This document shows, in pieces, positions 48,631-55,023 of a stretch of 64,000 nucleotides of DNA. This stretch comes from Pseudonocardiaceae bacterium (GTDB lineage Bacteria; Actinomycetota; Actinomycetes; Mycobacteriales; Pseudonocardiaceae), in NCBI GenBank assembly GCA_035948315.1, contig DASZJG010000010.1:24815-88814 (forward strand), read 5' to 3'. The notes beneath the pieces are model-generated. The model was not told the DNA's origin. It did no database searches and saw nothing but the letters and a program-made list of their open reading frames with translations. Positions within the stretch are counted from its first letter, which is position 1. The number at the start of each line of letters is the position of its first letter. The position numbers and the translations under genes were made by a program.

Positions 48631-48783
48631 CTGACCATATCAACACGTCGGATGTTCAACAAGCAAGCTACGCGCGTACGGAACGGTTCCGTGCCTCATA
48701 GCGCCGACCCCGATCCACCCCCGAAACCGGACCGTGCAGAATGCTCAGCCGAACCAGCCACCGGTTGCGTCGGGGAGAAGCTC

Positions 48784-49974
48784 ATGACGGCTCGGGTGAT
48801 GATCATCGGTGCGGGTATCGGCGGGAGTGCGACCGCCCTCGCGCTGCACAAGGCAGGGTTCGAGGTCGCCGTCTACGAGGCACATCCGGAAACCGGCGAG
48901 GACATCGGCGCCTTCCTCACCCTGGCCAGCAACGGAATGCAGGCGCTGGGCCAGATCGACGCGGCGGCCCCGGTCGCCGAGGTCGGCTTCGCGCTGACCT
49001 CGATCACGGTGTTGGCCGAGGACGGCGCGGTGCTCAGCAACGCCCCGCTCGGCGCGCACGAGGATCCGCTGACCCGGTTCCGCTGCCTGCGCAGGGCCCA
49101 ACTCGGCGCCGCGCTGCGCGCCGAGGTCGGCAAGCGCGGCATCCCGATCACCCACGGCGCCCGCCTCGCCTCGGCGACCGAGGACGCCGCCGGCGTCACC
49201 ATCACCTTCCGGGACGGCGAAACCGCGCGTGGCGACGTGGTGATCGGCGCCGACGGCCTGAACTCCACTCTGCGCAGCCTGATCGACCCCGACTCGCCCG
49301 CGCCGCGCTACGCCGGACAGCGCGTGTTCTACGGCTACACCAAGGACATCAAGCCCAAGTGCGAGCCAGAGGAGATCACCATGATCCCCGGCAGCACGGC
49401 GGCGTTCGGCTTCGCGGTGTCGCCGATCGGCGAAACCTACTGGTTCGCCCGCGTGCCGAACGAAAAACCGCTGCGTGCCACGGAAATGGCGGCGACCACG
49501 TCGGCCCAGTGGCGCGACCTGCTCGTCCCCCTCCTGCGCGCCGACAACACGCCCGCCGGCGACATCGTCGCGGCCACCAAACAGGAACTGCTCGTCACCA
49601 ACGCCCGCGACCTGCCGGACCTCGGCACCTGGCGCACGGCTCGGATGCTGGTCATCGGCGACGCCGCGCACGCCGCCTCCCCGGCGACCGGCCAGGGCGC
49701 GTCCATGGCCATCGAGGACGCCGTCGTACTGGCCAAGGCGTTACGCGACACCGAAACCGTCGAGGCCGGATTCGCCTTGTACGAGCAGGTTCGCCGGCCG
49801 CGCGTCGCCAAGAACATCGCCAACAGCGCGCGGATGACCGTGAGCCGGATGCCCGACCGTGAACAGCGCGCGATCGACAACGAGGTCATCCGCCAACGCC
49901 AGCTCCAGCCCTCGCCCCGGTTGGCCGACGACGACCTGTCCCGCCAGATCGACTGGCAGACGGCGCTCGCCTGA
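48784..49974 (+). CDS. FAD-dependent monooxygenase (class A)
   Basis: IIGAGIGG, VIGADGLNS, IGDAAHAASPATGQGASMAIEDA. Confidence 0.9.
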   Translation: MTARVMIIGAGIGGSATALALHKAGFEVAVYEAHPETGEDIGAFLTLASNGMQALGQIDAAAPVAEVGFALTSITVLAEDGAVLSNAPLGAHEDPLTRFRCLRRAQLGAALRAEVGKRGIPITHGARLASATEDAAGVTITFRDGETARGDVVIGADGLNSTLRSLIDPDSPAPRYAGQRVFYGYTKDIKPKCEPEEITMIPGSTAAFGFAVSPIGETYWFARVPNEKPLRATEMAATTSAQWRDLLVPLLRADNTPAGDIVAATKQELLVTNARDLPDLGTWRTARMLVIGDAAHAASPATGQGASMAIEDAVVLAKALRDTETVEAGFALYEQVRRPRVAKNIANSARMTVSRMPDREQRAIDNEVIRQRQLQPSPRLADDDLSRQIDWQTALA

Positions 49975-50002
49975 CGCCCTACGGTCGTTGACAATCCCGG
50001 CT

Positions 50003-50212
50003 GGGTGGAGTGCCCCTTGCCCGCCCTCGTCGTCACGGATCCGCACGCGGTGGTGTGCCGTGCCCGGTGCCCCGTCACCTGTGCGCCGTGCTGGGCTGCC
50101 CTGTCACTGGGAGTCGAACCCAACGCTGCCCGCCGCGTTCCATCGAGGTGGGCCGATTTCCCCGTCGACCCTCGGGTTGTGCACGCCTCCGCGACGACTA
50201 CCTGCTCCACCC
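50003..50212 (-). ncRNA. Candidate structured ncRNA or 3' RNA element associated with the DIP1984-family gene
   Basis: Nested long-range stems GGGTGGAG/CTCCACCC and GTCGTCGCGG/CCGTGACGAC; T-loop hairpin CGTTGGG-TTCGACT-CCCAGTG (50125-50105); extra hairpin CGAGG..CCTCG; clustered GCAC repeats. Confidence 0.6.
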
Positions 50213-50216
50213 GTTC

Positions 50217-50684
50217 TCAGTCCAGCAGTTCGATCTCCCAGTTGGCCTGCTGGATGCGCACGTCGAGTTCGCGCAGCTCGCGCGCCAACTCGTCGGCCTG
50301 CTGGCGCAGCGCGGCGACCGGGAGGGCGGCCAGCATCTTCAGCTCCGAGCGGAGCTGGCGGCCACCGTACTCGTTGCGGCCCGCGGCCGCGTCGGCCGCC
50401 GCGGTGATCACCGAGTGCCGGGTGCGCAGCACGTCGCGCCGCGCCAGGGCGTCGGTGACCGTGCCGTCCGCGCCGATGTGCGCGGCCGCGTTGGTGCGGT
50501 TGATGCGGCGGATCAGGTCTTCCAGCTCAACGAGCACCTCGCCCGCTTGGTCCAACAGCACGCGGGCGTCCTCGGAGGGCTCCTCACCCTCCTGGTAGCG
50601 CGCGTTGGCGACGATCCGGGACCGCAACTGCTCGACCCGGCGCGTGGCGTCGGCCCGCAGCGCCAAAGCCTCGGCAACCTTCAT
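50217..50684 (-). CDS. DIP1984-family (coiled-coil) protein
   Basis: MKVAEALALRAD...RIVANARYQEGEEPSEDA...LIRRINRTN...TDALARRD...LRELDVRIQQANW; start overlaps the ABC stop (ATGA). Confidence 0.85.
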   Translation of the reverse strand: MKVAEALALRADATRRVEQLRSRIVANARYQEGEEPSEDARVLLDQAGEVLVELEDLIRRINRTNAAAHIGADGTVTDALARRDVLRTRHSVITAAADAAAGRNEYGGRQLRSELKMLAALPVAALRQQADELARELRELDVRIQQANWEIELLD

Positions 50685-53600
50685 GTTCGCACCCCCGTAC
50701 CTGATCCGGATCGGCCAAGTATGGGACCTCCGCCGGATTCGGCCAACCGGTTTTCGCCGTTGCCGCCGACCAGTTCGAACGCCCGCCACATGGAGGCGTA
50801 TTTTCCTTCGATGACAAGGAGTTCGTCGTGCGTGCCGGACTCGGCGATCTGGCCCTTGTCGAGTACGACGATCCGGTCGGCGGTCTTCGCGGTCTGCAAC
50901 CGGTGCGCGATCACGATCGTGGTCCGGTTGTGCGACAACCGCTGCATGGCCCCGGCCACATGCGCCTCGGTCACCAGGTCCAGATTGGACGTTGCCTCGT
51001 CGAGCAACAGCACGGTCGGGTCGACGAGTTCGGCTCGGGCGAGCGCGATCAGCTGGCGTTGACCGGCCGAGAGCGAACGGCCGCGTTCGGCCATGGCGTG
51101 CAGGTAGCCGCCGGGCAGGCCGGCGATGAACTCGTGCGCGCCGACCGCGCGGGCCGCCGCCTCCACCTCGGCATCGCTGGCATCAGGACGACCGTAGGCG
51201 ATGTTGTCGCGAACGCTGCCGGAGAACAGGAAACCCTCCTGCGGCACGTAGCCGAGTTGTCGGCGGAACTCGTGCAGGTCGAGCGCGCGCAGGTCGTGCC
51301 CGTCCAGTCGGACGCTGCCGGCATCCGGATCGTAGAAGCGCGCGAGCAGCTTCATCACGGTCGACTTGCCGGCTCCGGTCTCGCCGACGATCGCGACGGT
51401 CTCCCCCGGCGCGATACGCAGGTCGATGCCGCGCAACGCCTCCGGCAGTTTGGCCGGTGTCGCGTCCGCGTTGCGGGGAAGGCGGGCATCGGCCGGGCCG
51501 AGACGTTGGGGGCCGCGGGCCGGCCAACTCGTGACGGCGGGATAGGAGAAGCGGACCGCGTCCAGGACGAGTTCGCCGCGGGTCGCGTCGATGTGTCGCG
51601 GCCGTTCCGGTTGCGGGGTGAGGGTGTCCAACCGCATCAGCTGCGCGATCCGGCTGACCGAGACGCGGGTCTGCTGCCAGGCGTCGAATACCTGCGACAG
51701 CTGCTGGATCGGCGCGAAGAACATGTCGATGTAGAGCATGAACGCGATGAGCGCACCGGTGGTGAGCTGACCGGTCGCGATCAGGCCGGCACCGACGCCG
51801 AGCACGATCGCGTCGGCCCCCGCCGACAGGAACTGGACGAAGGGAAAGTAGACCGCGACGAGTCGCTGGGCGGCCACTCGGGACGCGAGGTAGTCGCGGC
51901 CGAGCCGGTGGAAGCGTTGCCTGGTCAGCGGTTCGTGGGTGAACGCCTGGGACTCGCGGACGCCGGAGAGGCTTTCCTGGAAGTCGGCGTTGACGATGGC
52001 GATGCGCTCCCTGGCGAGGTCGTAGAGGCGCGCGGCCCTGCGTCGGAAGATCACCGTGCCGATGGCCAGCGGCACGACGACGGTCAGCGTCCACAGGCCG
52101 AGTTCGGGGTTGATCAGCACGATGGCGACGCCGACACCGACGAAGGTGACCAGCGAGACGAGCGCGGAGAGCAGCCCGTTCTCGATCAGCGACTCGAACT
52201 GGTCGACGTCGGTGGTCATCCTGGTCATGATCCGGCCGGCCATCTCGCGCTCGTAGTAGTCGAGCGAAAGGCGTTGCAGCTGGGCCCAGATCCGCACGCG
52301 CAGCGACAGCATGATCCGCTCGGCCGCGCGTCCGGTGACGAAGGTTTCGCCGATCTGATCGACCAGGTCGGCTAGCGTGACCACGAGGAACAGGCCGGAC
52401 GCGAGGAACAGCACGGTCTGCGAGCCCGCGGTGACCCCATTGTCCACACCGGACTTGACCAGGATCGGCCCGGCCAGGCCGGCGAGCGCGTCGATGACGA
52501 CCAGGATCAGGCCGATCAGCAGCGGCCGGCGGAACTCGCGCAGGATGGTCAGCAGCCGGAAACCCTTGTCGTGCCGGGATTCCTTGGCCACGTCGACGTC
52601 GGGGAAGTCGCGGACCGGTGGCAGCGCGGCGACTCTGGCCAGCAGTTCGGGGGTGGGCGCGAGGTTGAGTCGCCAGCCGCCGCCCGCGCTGCCGCCGAGG
52701 CCGGGACCGATGCTGACCGCGCCGACCTGGCGTGCCGCGCCGTTGGCGGCCGGGGTCTCGGCCAACGCGGCGGACCAGGCGGAATCGGTCTTGGTCAGGG
52801 TGGCGAGGGTTTCGATGCGGTCGCCGACCTTGGCGGCGACGTCCTCCTCCAGTCCGGACAGCAGTGTCCGGTACATGGCGCTGCGTTCGACGAGTTCGGC
52901 GTGCGTGCCCTGTTCGACGACGCGGCCCCCGTCGAGGACGACGATCCGGTCGGCGAGGTGCAGCGTGGAGCGGCGGTGCGCGATCAGCAGGGTGGTGCGG
53001 TCGGCGAGGACGCCGCGCAGCGCGTCGTGCACGGCCTCCTCGATCGTGGCGTCGATGGCGCTGGTCGCGTCGTCCAGGATGAGGATGCGCGGATCGGTGA
53101 GGATGGCGCGGGCCAGCGCGATGCGTTGGCGTTGGCCGCCGGAGAGGGTCAGGCCGCGCTCGCCGACCATGGTGTCGTAGCCATCGGGCAGCGCCATGAT
53201 GAACTCGTGCGCCGCTGCCGTGCGGGCCGCTGCCTCGATCTCGGCGTCGGTCGCGTCGGGCCTGCCGTAGGCGATGTTCTCGCGAACCGTTTCGGAGAAC
53301 AGGAAACTGTCCTCGAACGCGACGCCGACCTGGCGCCGCAACGACGTCAGCGTGACCGTGCGCAGGTCGTGCCCGTCGACGAGCACCGCGCCGGAATCCG
53401 GGTCGTTGAACCGGGAGACGAGCATGGCCACGGTGGATTTCCCGCTGCCGCTCGGGCCGACGATCGCGACCCGCTCCCCCGCCGCGATGTGCAGGTCGAA
53501 GCCGTCGAGCACGGGGTGGTCGGCGTCGTAGCCGAACCGGACGTCGGCGAAGGTGATCTCACCGCGGATCTCGGGCAGTTCCTCGGCTTCGTCGGCGTCG

Positions 53601-54577
53601 GCGATGGCGGGCCGCAGGTCGAGCAGTTGGAAGATCCGTTCGACGCCGGCCCGCGCCTGCTGAGCGATCGTGAGCACACCGGCGAGTTGGCGGGCCGGCG
53701 CGACGAACTGGGCGACGTAGGTGGAGAACGCGAGGAACGTGCCTAGGGTGATCTCGTGGCGCAGCGCGAGCCAACCGCCGAAGGCGAGGATGGCGACCTG
53801 GCCGATGGCCGGGACGGCCTCCAGCAGCGGCTGATAGCGGGACTGGAGCCGGACCGCGCGCATCCGCGACCCGAACAGGGATTTCGCCGCGGCGACGATC
53901 CGGCCGAGTTCGCGTTCCTCCTGCCCGAACGCCTTCACCACGCGCACGCCGTTGACGTCCTCGTCGACGATCTGCGCGACGTCGCCCTCGCGCTGCTGCC
54001 CGTCCCAGGTGGCCGGGAAGACGCGCCAGCGCATCCGGTAGGAGACCGCGACCAGCACGGGCGCGACGACCAGGCTGACCAGCGCCAACAGCGGCGAGAG
54101 GTAGAACATCACGCCGAGCGAGAGCAGCATCAGCAGCAGGTTGCCGCTCATGATCGGGAAGAAGTTGAGCAGGCCCTGGACCAGCGTGGAGTCGGAGTTG
54201 GCGCGGGCGACGAGTTGCCCGGTGGACATCCGGTCGAGGTTGGCGAGGTCCATGGTCTGCAGGTGGTCGTGCATCTCGTTGCGCAGGTCGTACTGCACTT
54301 CGAGGCCGACCCGACCGCCCCGGTACCGGCGCAGGTAGGTGAAGCCGAAGCTGGCCACGGCGACCGCGACGAGCAGCAGCAGCCACGGCCACAGCGGCGA
54401 GTCGCGCTGGACGACGACGCCGTCCACGATCTGCCGGGCGATCAGCGGAACAAGGGTCTGGCAGGCGCTGCCGAGCAGGGCTCCGGTGAGCGCGAGCAGC
54501 ACGTTGCGTCGGTGTTTGAGCAGGTAGCCGGCGAGGCGACGGAGCCAGCCGGGGGTGCGTGTTTCGGCGTCCGTCAT
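50681..54577 (-). CDS. Full-length (TMD-NBD)x2 multidrug-type ABC exporter
   Basis: Two TMDs; GPSGSGKS/LSGGQRQR and GETGAGKS/LSAGQRQL NBDs. Confidence 0.9.
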   Translation of the reverse strand: MTDAETRTPGWLRRLAGYLLKHRRNVLLALTGALLGSACQTLVPLIARQIVDGVVVQRDSPLWPWLLLLVAVAVASFGFTYLRRYRGGRVGLEVQYDLRNEMHDHLQTMDLANLDRMSTGQLVARANSDSTLVQGLLNFFPIMSGNLLLMLLSLGVMFYLSPLLALVSLVVAPVLVAVSYRMRWRVFPATWDGQQREGDVAQIVDEDVNGVRVVKAFGQEERELGRIVAAAKSLFGSRMRAVRLQSRYQPLLEAVPAIGQVAILAFGGWLALRHEITLGTFLAFSTYVAQFVAPARQLAGVLTIAQQARAGVERIFQLLDLRPAIADADEAEELPEIRGEITFADVRFGYDADHPVLDGFDLHIAAGERVAIVGPSGSGKSTVAMLVSRFNDPDSGAVLVDGHDLRTVTLTSLRRQVGVAFEDSFLFSETVRENIAYGRPDATDAEIEAAARTAAAHEFIMALPDGYDTMVGERGLTLSGGQRQRIALARAILTDPRILILDDATSAIDATIEEAVHDALRGVLADRTTLLIAHRRSTLHLADRIVVLDGGRVVEQGTHAELVERSAMYRTLLSGLEEDVAAKVGDRIETLATLTKTDSAWSAALAETPAANGAARQVGAVSIGPGLGGSAGGGWRLNLAPTPELLARVAALPPVRDFPDVDVAKESRHDKGFRLLTILREFRRPLLIGLILVVIDALAGLAGPILVKSGVDNGVTAGSQTVLFLASGLFLVVTLADLVDQIGETFVTGRAAERIMLSLRVRIWAQLQRLSLDYYEREMAGRIMTRMTTDVDQFESLIENGLLSALVSLVTFVGVGVAIVLINPELGLWTLTVVVPLAIGTVIFRRRAARLYDLARERIAIVNADFQESLSGVRESQAFTHEPLTRQRFHRLGRDYLASRVAAQRLVAVYFPFVQFLSAGADAIVLGVGAGLIATGQLTTGALIAFMLYIDMFFAPIQQLSQVFDAWQQTRVSVSRIAQLMRLDTLTPQPERPRHIDATRGELVLDAVRFSYPAVTSWPARGPQRLGPADARLPRNADATPAKLPEALRGIDLRIAPGETVAIVGETGAGKSTVMKLLARFYDPDAGSVRLDGHDLRALDLHEFRRQLGYVPQEGFLFSGSVRDNIAYGRPDASDAEVEAAARAVGAHEFIAGLPGGYLHAMAERGRSLSAGQRQLIALARAELVDPTVLLLDEATSNLDLVTEAHVAGAMQRLSHNRTTIVIAHRLQTAKTADRIVVLDKGQIAESGTHDELLVIEGKYASMWRAFELVGGNGENRLAESGGGPILGRSGSGTGVRT

Positions 54578-55023
54578 CGGCCGCCGCCACGGCGCCGGGT
54601 GGCCATCCGTTCCTCGGCGACCTCCTCGATGGCCGCGCCGAGCCACACCAGCGACTCAAGCAGTTGCTCCCCGTCCGGAGTGCGCGTCTGTAGTTCGGTG
54701 AGTCTTTCGATCATGGCTGTCTCCACGTTGTCCAGTAGGGCGCGACCGGCGTCGGTCAGCCGCAGTGCGGCGGCACGCTGGTCGCCCGCGACCTCGGAGC
54801 GCGCGATCAGGCCACGTTGGCTGAGCGACTCGACGGCGGCGCTCACGGCGGGTTTGCCGAGCGCGAGCCGCTCCGCGACCCGGGAGGCGCGTTCGTCGCC
54901 GCCGGCGATCGCGGACAGCACCCGGTAGTGCGCCAGGCTCAGCTCGCCGGACACCCGCTCCAGAATTCGGGCAGCGCGGGCCAGGGCGCGCACGGCGTCA
55001 ACGGCTCTCGTTCGATCGGTCAC
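54574..55023 (-). CDS. MarR-family regulator
   Basis: LSLAHYRVL, ERLALGKPAVSAAVESL, GDQRAAALRLTDAG; coupled to the ABC gene. Confidence 0.85.
   Translation of the reverse strand: MTDRTRAVDAVRALARAARILERVSGELSLAHYRVLSAIAGGDERASRVAERLALGKPAVSAAVESLSQRGLIARSEVAGDQRAAALRLTDAGRALLDNVETAMIERLTELQTRTPDGEQLLESLVWLGAAIEEVAEERMATRRRGGGR

What the first reader, a model, noticed from the sequence alone, without database searches (positions are those of the whole stretch)
50003..50684. DIP1984-family gene followed by a ~210-nt structured RNA with a tRNA-like T-loop and GCAC repeats: candidate protein-ncRNA system
Seen in sequence: on the minus strand, 4 nt after the stop, the intergenic region folds into nested long-range stems. 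P1 is GGGTGGAG (50212-50205)/CTCCACCC (50010-50003), 8 bp. P2 is GTCGTCGCGG (50198-50189)/CCGTGACGAC (50038-50029), 10 bp with one G-U. Inside are a CGAGG/CCTCG + GTCGA/TCGGC hairpin and a 7-bp stem with the canonical T-loop TTCGACT (50125-50105), flanked on both sides by GGGCAGC. GCAC occurs five times within ~45 nt (about 50092-50055). This is far more ordered than a terminator and is not a full tRNA. Established: DIP1984-family proteins are small coiled-coil proteins of unknown function, and T-loop modules stabilise tRNA-mimic RNAs (Y RNA/YrlA, tmRNA, T-box). Inference: the protein may bind or process this co-transcribed RNA, with the GCAC array as a multimeric binding site.
Basis: partly seen in the sequence, partly recalled or inferred. 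Interest (0 to 1): 0.82.

Follow-up and report, generated by a model that had tools for sequence, protein, structure and literature searches.

The report
New folded RNA partnering DIP1984 gene
Directly behind a small gene of unknown function (DIP1984/DUF6847) lies a real, about 205-base, intricately folded RNA that matches no catalogued RNA family and follows this gene almost wherever it occurs, pointing to an undescribed protein-RNA partnership.

Summary
On this sequence alone the fold is no more stable than shuffled sequence (z +1.25). Comparison with relatives settles it.

- **Linkage.** A ~205-nt block starts 0-25 nt after the DIP1984 stop, on the same strand. It is present in 80/80 testable actinobacterial loci and 76/76 testable metagenomic loci (protein identity down to 41%, G+C down to 44%). 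Weak matches sit in the same place on Acinetobacter, Psychrobacter and Enterococcus plasmids.
- **Exclusivity.** In 401 Actinomycetota genomes, all 8 RNA hits lie directly 3' of a DUF6847 gene.
- **Structure.** 42 of 46 pairs show compensatory changes; 92.8% of cells are paired against 34-43% in slid controls.
- **Anatomy.** Three nested helices, a 5' pseudoknot, a loop-to-distal pseudoknot (GGGC/GCCC) and an optional tRNA-type T-arm. Also eight 7-nt units, each with an invariant A (the "GCAC repeats"), and invariant GGUA and GAGGGYGGG...GGGG segments.
- **Exclusions.** No Rfam 15 match, no tRNA, no coding signal, no conserved neighbouring gene, no paper found.

Best reading: a self-contained, patchily distributed gene-plus-RNA cassette forming a ribonucleoprotein, with the 7-nt array as the likely protein platform.

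The parts
50217..50684 (-). DIP1984/DUF6847 protein gene: 155 aa, stop TGA at 50217-50219. Its ATG overlaps the stop of the upstream ABC-transporter ORF (ATGA).
   Evidence: Pfam PF20935 E 9.9e-51. NCBIfam NF038048 E 8e-53. PDB 3kdq E 9.8e-26. AF2 model pLDDT 90 with four helices; Foldseek TM 0.91 to 3kdq and nothing else significant.
50003..50211 (-). The whole structured RNA element. RNA position p corresponds to window coordinate 50212 - p.
   Evidence: Covariance model R1 scores 184.3 bits, E 1.9e-43. It is the only hit in the window and in the genome. There is no Rfam match.
50205..50211 (-). P1, 5' strand (RNA 1-7); pairs with 50004-50010.
   Evidence: All 7 pairs have compensatory changes; all four Watson-Crick types occur.
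50004..50010 (-). P1, 3' strand (RNA 202-208).
50199..50202 (-). Invariant GGUA (RNA 10-13) in the P1/P2 junction.
   Evidence: At least 95% conserved in 82 diverse copies. In some Microbacterium loci its UAG is the stop codon of the gene.
50188..50198 (-). P2, 5' strand (RNA 14-24); pairs with 50029-50039.
   Evidence: All 11 pairs have compensatory changes.
50029..50039 (-). P2, 3' strand (RNA 173-183).
50179..50183 (-). P3, 5' strand UGCAC (RNA 29-33); pairs with 50042-50046. It is preceded by the near-invariant GCG.
   Evidence: 99.8% of cells paired. The outer pair is AU 43, GC 17, UA 15, CG 2.
50042..50046 (-). P3, 3' strand GUGCG (RNA 166-170).
50150..50176 (-). 5' pseudoknot domain. 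PK1: CCCG (RNA 36-39) with CGGG (48-51). Hairpin P5: RNA 41-47 with 56-62.
   Evidence: P5: 6 of 6 counted pairs compensatory, 93.7% paired. PK1: two invariant C-G pairs, and outer pairs that covary (CG 23, AU 15, GC 7) with 77% paired.
50123..50138 (-). Hairpin P6 (RNA 74-77 with 86-89) with loop GGCGGGCA. Loop GGGC (RNA 81-84, window 50128-50131) pairs with GCCC at 50093-50096 (PK2).
   Evidence: P6: 4 of 4 pairs compensatory, 98% paired. PK2: 98.7% paired; one pair is GC 63, AU 13. Both are among the top mutual-information pairs.
50108..50122 (-). tRNA-type T-arm: stem RNA 90-93 with 101-104, loop UUCGACU at 50112-50118.
   Evidence: GGGUUCGAnUCCC is present in 53 of 80 first loci. The stem covaries. 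It is absent in Microbacterium, L082 and L096, and replaced in L097. ARAGORN finds no tRNA.
50051..50107 (-). Array of eight 7-nt units (consensus nnGCAcn). Invariant adenines lie at window 50104, 50097, 50089, 50082, 50075, 50068, 50061 and 50054. The array is followed by invariant ACC at 50049-50051. PK2's 3' strand (50093-50096) lies inside the array.
   Evidence: The adenines are at least 95-97% conserved. The spacing 7,8,7,7,7,7,7 occurs in 41 of 82 diverse copies. TRF finds period 7, 4.9 copies, at 50058-50091. The candidate helices here (P8, GGUG/CACC) show no convincing covariation.
50013..50028 (-). Invariant G-rich segment GAGGGCGGGCAAGGGG (RNA 184-199) between P2 and P1.
   Evidence: 13 of 16 positions are at least 95% conserved in 82 diverse copies. 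In a divergent variant (L116, L117) it directly abuts the GCAGGUG segment.

Best explanation
Window 50003-50211 (minus strand) encodes a member of an uncatalogued family of ~190-220-nt structured non-coding RNAs. The RNA is made as the 3' part of the DIP1984/DUF6847 transcript, or is processed from it. Gene and RNA together form a self-contained two-part cassette.

**Shown**
- The fold: closing helix P1, long helix P2, helix P3, an H-type pseudoknot domain, a hairpin whose loop pairs with a distal GCCC, and an optional T-arm.
- The strand, the non-coding nature, the near-obligatory adjacency to the gene across phyla, the lack of any other conserved neighbour, and the patchy presence/absence between close relatives.

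**Inferred**
- The RNA and the protein form a ribonucleoprotein.
- The folded part is a scaffold. It presents a roughly 55-nt stretch of eight 7-nt units (nnGCAcn, each with an invariant A), plus invariant GGUA and G-rich segments, to several copies of the arginine-rich four-helix protein. This resembles the way TRAP or HutP read evenly spaced triplets.
- The 5' strand of P1 begins 0-25 nt after the stop codon (inside it in some Microbacterium loci). A terminating ribosome and the folded, protein-bound RNA should therefore exclude each other, which would allow feedback on the gene's own expression.
- The cellular role is unknown. The accessory, plasmid-borne, horizontally scattered distribution fits a mobile module such as a toxin-antitoxin-like, defence or stress ribonucleoprotein.
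For: **Linkage**
- RNA present on the gene's strand right after the stop in 80/80 testable genome loci, at 128-219 bits.
- Present in 76/76 testable metagenome loci, with protein identity 78 to 41% and G+C 44-75%.
- Weak hits in the same place in 3 of 3 plasmid loci from Acinetobacter, Psychrobacter and Enterococcus.
- In 401 Actinomycetota genomes, the 8 RNA hits are all 10-80 nt 3' of a PF20935 gene. Two further DIP1984 genomes carry a divergent version of the RNA.

**Structure**
- 92.8% of cells paired against 34-43% for slid partners.
- 42 of 46 pairs compensatory; 777 compensatory cells against 66-109 in controls; 0 of 500 shuffles reach the observed values (likewise).
- The top 16 APC-corrected mutual-information pairs are all Watson-Crick pairs of the proposed helices.
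- G-U far outnumbers A-C in the pairs, which fixes the strand.

**Non-coding**
- No 3-nt periodicity, and lengths fall in all classes modulo 3.

**Cassette autonomy**
- No neighbour family is shared by more than 13 of 80 loci.
- The next gene downstream is convergent in 33 loci and co-directional in 39.
- Strong hairpins are enriched just after the RNA (40% against 22% in controls, p 6e-5).

**Co-loss**
- G001 lost the gene together with the 5' 130 nt of the RNA.
- G004 has an empty site.

**7-nt array and invariant adenines**
-.

**Protein**
- 21 Arg, many of them invariant.
- The fold matches only 3kdq.
Against: - No direct evidence of transcription, RNA ends, processing or protein binding.
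- The protein is acidic overall (pI 5.4). It has no recognised RNA-binding fold, and Foldseek gives only 3kdq.
- Obligatory adjacency is also expected for a purely cis-acting 3'-UTR element.
- The autocorrelation of conservation at lag 7 is weak (0.10). The periodicity rests on the invariant adenines rather than on whole units.
- One DIP1984 locus (G148) has a longer fused ORF and no detectable RNA.
- The window's own copy has no recognisable terminator or promoter.
Confidence: 0.6

Rival explanations
1. A purely cis-acting 3'-UTR element of the DIP1984 mRNA. In this reading the ornate fold blocks 3'-to-5' exonucleases, or senses a small ligand or ion. It thereby sets mRNA stability or termination and never binds the DIP1984 protein.
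For: - It is always on the same transcript side and strand, starting 0-25 nt after the stop.
- It is followed by terminator-like hairpins.
- In the Enterococcus copy the 3' strand of P1 is shared with an intrinsic terminator stem, a switch-like layout.
- About 37 near-invariant unpaired nucleotides and two pseudoknots resemble ligand-binding aptamers.
Against: - A stability element does not need about 37 invariant nucleotides, two pseudoknots and a periodic array conserved from Actinomycetota to 44% G+C organisms.
- Known riboswitches sit 5' of what they control.
- The terminator overlap is not seen in the actinobacterial copies.
- It does not explain why only this one gene family carries the element.
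Confidence: 0.2
2. An RNA-protein toxin-antitoxin or anti-phage defence pair (type III-like). One partner neutralises the other, and the cassette persists as a selfish or defensive mobile module. This is a special case of the ribonucleoprotein reading, with a defined role.
For: - It is a two-component cassette with no other conserved neighbour.
- It is present in only 12 of 401 Actinomycetota genomes and 3 of 7 genomes of the genus.
- Occupancy at one chromosomal site is polymorphic: full, remnant or empty.
- It is carried on hundreds of small Acinetobacter plasmids and on Enterococcus and Psychrobacter plasmids.
Against: - No PADLOC hit.
- The RNA is downstream rather than upstream of the gene, and it is not a tandem array of ~36-nt units.
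- The protein shows no nuclease-like fold.
- The protein is unusually conserved for a defence gene: 58-77% identity across actinobacterial families.
Confidence: 0.15
3. A non-functional feature: chance complementarity in G+C-rich intergenic DNA, a bidirectional terminator, a tRNA-gene remnant or attachment site, a MITE, or an unannotated small ORF.
For: - The single-sequence fold is no better than shuffles (z +1.25).
- The T-arm sequence is identical in type to tRNA T-arms.
Against: - Massive covariation.
- Conservation across about 160 loci.
- Single copy per genome.
- No own-genome tRNA matches beyond the generic 11-nt T-loop, and ARAGORN finds nothing.
- No codon periodicity.
Confidence: 0.01

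Closest known systems
Bacterial Y RNAs (YrlA type) with Ro60/Rsr
   Same: - A structured non-coding RNA encoded next to the gene of its protein partner.
- It contains a tRNA-type T-arm.
- Its distribution among bacteria is accessory and patchy.
   Different: - No match to any Rfam Y RNA or YrlA model, even at E <= 10.
- The genome's only TROVE (Ro60-like) gene is on another contig.
- The partner here is a 155-aa four-helix protein, not a Ro60 ring.
- The T-arm is dispensable in many members.
- The rest of the architecture is unrelated.
RNA targets with evenly spaced short units read by oligomeric proteins: TRAP (11 G/UAG triplets) and HutP (NAG triplets; hutP lies directly upstream of its RNA target)
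   Same: - A run of evenly spaced, short, conserved units in a stretch without covarying helices.
- As with hutP, the protein gene lies immediately 5' of the RNA.
   Different: - The period is 7 nt with GCAc units.
- The array is embedded in a large pseudoknotted scaffold.
- There is no regulated downstream gene.
- The protein fold is unrelated.
- Binding has not been shown.
Type III toxin-antitoxin systems (ToxIN, CptIN)
   Same: - A protein-plus-RNA two-gene cassette.
- It is plasmid-borne and patchily distributed.
   Different: - The RNA lies 3' of the gene.
- It is one complex fold, not tandem ~36-nt repeats.
- No PADLOC hit.
- No ToxN-like fold.
Orphan ornate bacterial RNAs found by comparative genomics (raiA motif, OLE, ROOL/GOLLD, and HEARO, later shown to be the RNA partner of the neighbouring IscB gene)
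   Same: - About 200 nt, with several pseudoknots and dozens of invariant nucleotides.
- Recognised only by covariation.
- HEARO is a precedent for an RNA next to a protein gene turning out to be that protein's partner.
   Different: - No sequence or structure match to any of them in Rfam 15.
- The associated gene family is different.
DIP1984 family / Pfam DUF6847 (crystal structure 3KDQ, Corynebacterium diphtheriae), often mis-annotated 'septicolysin'
   Same: The window's protein is a clear member.
   Different: - Nothing is published on its function in the library searched.
- The cytolysin label is only a name transfer.
- No public description of an associated RNA was found.

Membership tests
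Any Rfam 15 family | Covariance-model match at or near the gathering score | tested here: not met
   No hit in the window at gathering thresholds. Only two 16-bit chance hits at E <= 10 on 49800-50400. Nothing on homologous loci L109, L117 or L121-L123 apart from an unrelated T-box.
tRNA / tmRNA | Cloverleaf or tmRNA architecture recognised by ARAGORN | tested here: not met
   No genes found in the window.
tRNA / tmRNA | T-arm: 5-bp stem with loop UUCRANY | tested here: met
   GGGUUCGACUCCC at 50109-50121. The stem covaries in relatives. The arm is absent in 25 of 81 distinct diverse copies.
tRNA remnant / integrase attachment site | Extended identity to the 3' part of a tRNA gene of the genome | tested here: not met
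   The best matches to the 59 tRNA/tmRNA genes ARAGORN predicts in the own genome are 11-13 nt of generic T-loop.
Y RNA / YrlA with Ro60 | Encoded beside an rsr (TROVE) gene | tested here: not met
   The only TROVE hit is on contig C3; the window is on C10.
Y RNA / YrlA with Ro60 | Match to the Rfam Y RNA or YrlA models | tested here: not met
Riboswitch / cis-regulatory leader | Lies 5' of the gene(s) it controls, with a consistent downstream gene set | tested here: not met
   It lies 3' of DIP1984. In the window the next gene is convergent. Across 72 loci the next gene is convergent in 33 and co-directional in 39, with no conserved family.
Type III toxin-antitoxin | Tandem direct repeats of about 34-36 nt upstream of a ToxN-like endoribonuclease gene | tested here: not met
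   TRF finds only a weak period-7/14 array. No PADLOC hit. The fold matches only 3kdq.
Periodic protein-binding RNA arrays (TRAP/HutP type) | Six or more short conserved units at constant spacing in an unpaired stretch | tested here: met
   Eight units with invariant A, spaced 7,8,7,7,7,7,7 nt.
Periodic protein-binding RNA arrays (TRAP/HutP type) | Binding by a ring or oligomer of the cognate protein | not testable with these tools
   Needs biochemistry. The PDB entry 3kdq holds 4 chains, which says nothing about RNA binding.
MITE / repeat family | Multiple dispersed copies in a genome | tested here: not met
   One copy in the 8-Mb genome by BLAST and by covariance model.
DIP1984 family (protein) | Score above the curated cut-offs of PF20935 and NF038048, and the 3kdq fold | tested here: met
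   171.8 bits against a cut-off of 27. 178.6 bits against a cut-off of 70. TM 0.91 to 3kdq.

The most novel reading that the evidence does not exclude
DIP1984/DUF6847 proteins and the RNA encoded directly behind them are the two halves of a widespread, previously unrecognised bacterial ribonucleoprotein. An oligomer of a small four-helix protein reads an array of GCAc units with a 7-nt period, displayed by a doubly pseudoknotted scaffold that often carries a T-arm. The cassette moves horizontally, including on plasmids, as an autonomous module with a role in toxin-antitoxin-like, defence or RNA-stress biology.
Probability: 0.5. Interest if true: 0.9.

Novelty: categorically new. Interest (0 to 1): 0.82.

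Why it matters
- **The gene family.** DUF6847/DIP1984 has had a crystal structure since 2009 and no function. On Acinetobacter plasmids it is mislabelled as a cytolysin.
- **A concrete hypothesis.** The gene is almost always followed by one specific, highly ordered RNA. That gives the family its first testable functional hypothesis: the protein works on or with this RNA.
- **A new RNA class.** Few large bacterial RNA classes of this complexity are known. This one has strong covariation, two pseudoknots, about 37 near-invariant nucleotides and an unusual 7-nt array.
- **Easy to study.** The cassette is small (about 700 bp) and self-contained, so it can be moved into laboratory strains for pull-downs, structure determination and phenotype tests.
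- **Annotation.** The "intergenic" 200-850 nt behind these genes should stop being treated as empty.

Tried and rejected
1. **Thermodynamic significance of the single sequence.** Rejected: z +1.25 on the RNA strand and -0.05 on the other strand.
2. **tRNA remnant or attachment site.** Rejected: there are no tRNA genes in the window, and no own-genome tRNA shares more than the generic T-loop.
3. **Repeat or MITE.** Rejected: single copy.
4. **Hidden ORF or C-terminal extension.** Rejected: no codon periodicity, and indels of all lengths.
5. **Known RNA family.** Rejected: Rfam at gathering thresholds and at permissive E-values.
6. **Candidate helix P8 (RNA 126-129 with 140-143) and a GGUG/CACC pairing.** Not supported: few or no compensatory changes and many mismatches.
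Not conserved.
8. **A conserved neighbour gene that could hint at function.** None found.
9. **Leader of a downstream gene.** Rejected: the orientation of the next gene is random.
10. **Defence and phage libraries.** No PADLOC and no PHROGs hit. Only 5 phage-collection records hold a homologue.
11. **Fold comparison for a functional hint.** Only 3kdq is significant. A 79-column match to the seryl-tRNA synthetase coiled-coil arm (E 1.6) is not significant.
12. **Promoter and terminator consensus scans in the window.** Nothing found.
14. **Literature.** No paper mentions DIP1984, DUF6847, PF20935 or NF038048. The two papers that hit on 3KDQ appear unrelated to this protein family, and no paper combines septicolysin with sRNA.
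Full report
**What is in the window**

On the minus strand, 50217-50684 encodes a 155-aa protein. It is a clear member of the DIP1984/DUF6847 family:
- Pfam PF20935, E 9.9e-51.
- NCBIfam NF038048, E 8e-53.
- Homologue of the unannotated crystal structure 3KDQ.

Its ATG overlaps the stop of a long ABC-transporter ORF upstream (ATGA). A FAD-dependent monooxygenase gene converges from the other side and ends at 49974. The 242-nt gap between the two genes holds the flagged element.

**Is it more than chance?**

Not on this sequence alone:
- The RNA-strand fold is -97.6 kcal/mol, weaker than the mean of dinucleotide shuffles (z +1.25). The opposite strand gives z -0.05.
- Rfam 15 gives nothing at gathering thresholds for the whole window. 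It gives only two 16-bit chance hits at E <= 10.
- ARAGORN finds no tRNA or tmRNA.
- The block is single-copy in the 8-Mb genome, a Pseudonocardiaceae metagenome-assembled genome.
- No tRNA of that genome shares more than the generic T-loop with it.

**Comparative evidence**

Within the genus:
- G003 and G002 have the gene plus the block at 83-84% nucleotide identity.
- G001 has a GNAT acetyltransferase gene in place of DIP1984. It keeps only the 3' ~80 nt of the block.
- G004 has an empty site between the same flanking genes.

Across Actinomycetota:
- A scan of one genome per species returned 80 DIP1984 loci. They come from Nocardia, Mycobacterium, Streptomyces, Microbacterium, Kineococcus, Actinoplanes and others.
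- The ~205 nt directly after the stop are 72-81% identical to the window's block in most of these loci. In Microbacterium and a few other divergent loci BLAST matches mainly the 3' part.

With a covariance model built from 79 distinct copies:
- It hits every one of the 80 loci that has downstream sequence. There is one hit per locus, always on the gene's strand, at 128-219 bits.
- In an even sample of 401 Actinomycetota genomes the model hits 8 genomes. Each hit lies 10-80 nt 3' of a PF20935 gene.
- Of the 4 other genomes with the gene, two carry a divergent version of the RNA, one has a fused longer ORF without it, and one is a remote partial homologue.
- A metagenome scan with a broader protein alignment gave 80 more loci, with protein identity 78 to 41% and G+C 44-75%. 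All 76 with enough downstream DNA have the RNA.

Outside Actinomycetota:
- On plasmids of Acinetobacter baumannii (where the gene is called "septicolysin"), Psychrobacter and Enterococcus faecium, the best model hit is again directly behind the gene on its strand.
- These hits are weak (12-22 bits). They do show the P2 and P3 helices and the GGCG and ACCA landmarks.

**The fold**

RNA position p corresponds to window coordinate 50212 - p. An unbiased mutual-information scan ranks as its top 16 column pairs only Watson-Crick pairs of the helices below.

| Measure | Diverse alignment A5 | Slid-partner controls |
|---|---|---|
| Cells paired | 92.8% | 34-43% |
| Pairs with compensatory changes | 42 of 46 | 17-22 |
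| Compensatory cells | 777 | 66-109 |
| Shuffles reaching the observed values | 0 of 500 | - |

The actinobacterial alignment A2 behaves the same way.

Supported elements:
- P1: RNA 1-7 with 202-208.
- P2: RNA 14-24 with 173-183.
- P3: RNA 29-33 with 166-170.
- Hairpin P5: RNA 41-47 with 56-62. Its loop CGGG pairs with the upstream CCCG (PK1).
- Hairpin P6: RNA 74-77 with 86-89. Its loop GGGC pairs with GCCC at 116-119 (PK2, covarying to GAGC/GCUC).
- A 5-bp stem capped by UUCGAnU, a tRNA-type T-arm.

Other points:
- The T-arm is missing in Microbacterium and some other lineages, so it is peripheral.
- G-U pairs greatly outnumber A-C, which fixes the RNA strand as that of the gene.
- There is no 3-nt periodicity, and lengths fall in all classes modulo 3, so the block is not coding.
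- Two candidate helices in the 3' half (P8 and GGUG/CACC) are not supported.

**The GCAC repeats**

About 37 positions are at least 95% conserved in 82 diverse copies. Among them are adenines at RNA 108, 115, 123, 130, 144, 151 and 158. A137 is nearly as conserved.
- The spacing is 7,8,7,7,7,7,7 nt in half of all copies.
- The unit consensus is nnGCAcn.
- Tandem Repeats Finder sees a weak period-7 array at 50058-50091.
- This stretch has no covarying helix apart from the PK2 strand.

Also invariant are GGUA (RNA 10-13) and GAGGGYGGG-N3-GGGG (RNA 184-199), on the two sides of the P1/P2 junction. In a divergent variant these two segments are directly adjacent, which suggests one local motif.

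**Context**
- No other gene family is conserved around the cassette. The largest neighbour clusters are genus-level synteny, 13 of 80 loci at most.
- The next gene downstream is convergent about as often as co-directional, 33 against 39. The RNA is therefore not a leader.
- Strong hairpins are enriched right after the RNA (40% against 22% in controls, p 6e-5). This fits a transcript that ends there.
- P1 starts 0-25 nt after the stop in most loci. In several Microbacterium loci the stop codon is the UAG of the invariant GGUAG.

**The protein**
- AlphaFold gives a confident four-helix model (pLDDT 90). It matches only 3KDQ in the PDB (TM 0.91). Nothing else is significant.
- It has many invariant arginines but is acidic overall.
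- There are no PADLOC or PHROGs hits.
- The genome's single Ro60-like gene is on another contig.

**Interpretation**

Shown:
- A new structured RNA family, obligatorily paired with DIP1984 genes.
- Gene and RNA form an autonomous, patchily distributed and partly plasmid-borne cassette.
- Gene and RNA are lost together.

Inferred:
- Protein and RNA form a ribonucleoprotein, with the 7-nt array as the protein platform (confidence about 0.6 for the partnership, less for the platform).
- Translation termination and RNA folding compete at the stop/P1 boundary.

The rivals are a purely cis-acting 3'-UTR element (0.2) and a toxin-antitoxin or defence role (0.15). The second is a special case of the partnership rather than an alternative to it.

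**Earlier notes and limits**
- Earlier notes of this scan report the same gene-RNA pairing in other genomes.
- I re-derived the pairing independently before reading them.
- Their remark on 7-nt periodicity made me check the spacing of the invariant adenines, which holds here.
- Their phage and archaeal claims were not verified here.

No paper in the searchable library mentions the family's function or an associated RNA. Subscription journals are not covered, so prior description cannot be fully excluded.

Noticed in passing
L025:3226-3369 (genome G001, same genus): A GNAT acetyltransferase gene (233 aa) sits exactly where DIP1984 sits in the window. It is followed by a remnant of the RNA: only the 3' ~80 nt, equal to window 50004-50082, scoring 38 bits with R1. 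Gene and 5' RNA were lost together.
   Followed up: partly
L130:347-537 (genome G004, same genus): An empty site. The same ABC-transporter and FAD-monooxygenase genes are separated by about 190 nt of unrelated sequence, with no DIP1984, no RNA and no GNAT. The locus is a presence/absence hot spot within the genus.
   Followed up: partly
L115, L116, L117 (genomes G265, G431, G229): A divergent variant of the RNA. It has an extra outer helix (GGCAGGUGGC/GCCGCCUGCC). The GCAGGUG and GAGGGAGGGAACGGGG segments are directly adjacent instead of being separated by the P2 domain, and there is no T-arm.
   Followed up: partly
L122:2100-2160 (Enterococcus faecium plasmid pK75-1-A): The 3' strand of P1 (CCUCUGUUUA) is also the 5' strand of a classical intrinsic terminator (stem plus U9). 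P1 and the terminator are therefore mutually exclusive in this copy. This was not seen in the actinobacterial copies.
   Followed up: no
L122:1098-1328 (minus strand): A T-box leader match (86.8 bits, just under the gathering score of 93) upstream of the neighbouring peptide ABC-transporter gene. It is unrelated to the finding.
   Followed up: no
L069, L070, L072, L074, L105, about 30-90 nt after the RNA (Microbacterium): A second conserved non-coding block (GGCACGCCUCGGAC-GGAAUGUC-GGAGGGGGUUCGUACCGUGUGAGUAUGCG) follows the RNA in several Microbacterium loci. Its nature is unknown.
   Followed up: no
own genome, contig C95:114593-115453 (outside the window): ARAGORN predicts a tight array of nine tRNA genes (Tyr, Pro, Thr, Gln, Gln, Leu, Ser, Ile, Ser) within about 860 nt. 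This is typical of a prophage or mobile tRNA island.
   Followed up: no
window 50681-54646 (minus strand): One uninterrupted 1321-aa ORF holds two complete ABC exporter halves (permease plus ATPase, twice). Its stop overlaps the DIP1984 start codon (ATGA), which suggests co-transcription or translational coupling in this genome.
   Followed up: no
window 48668-48734: Relatives G003 and G001 carry about 1.3 kb of extra sequence here, between the DeoR-type regulator and the FAD monooxygenase. This sequence is absent from the window.
   Followed up: no
own genome, contig C3:23655-23837: A TROVE-domain (Ro60-like) gene is present elsewhere in the genome (62 bits). It is not linked to the DIP1984 cassette.
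   Followed up: no
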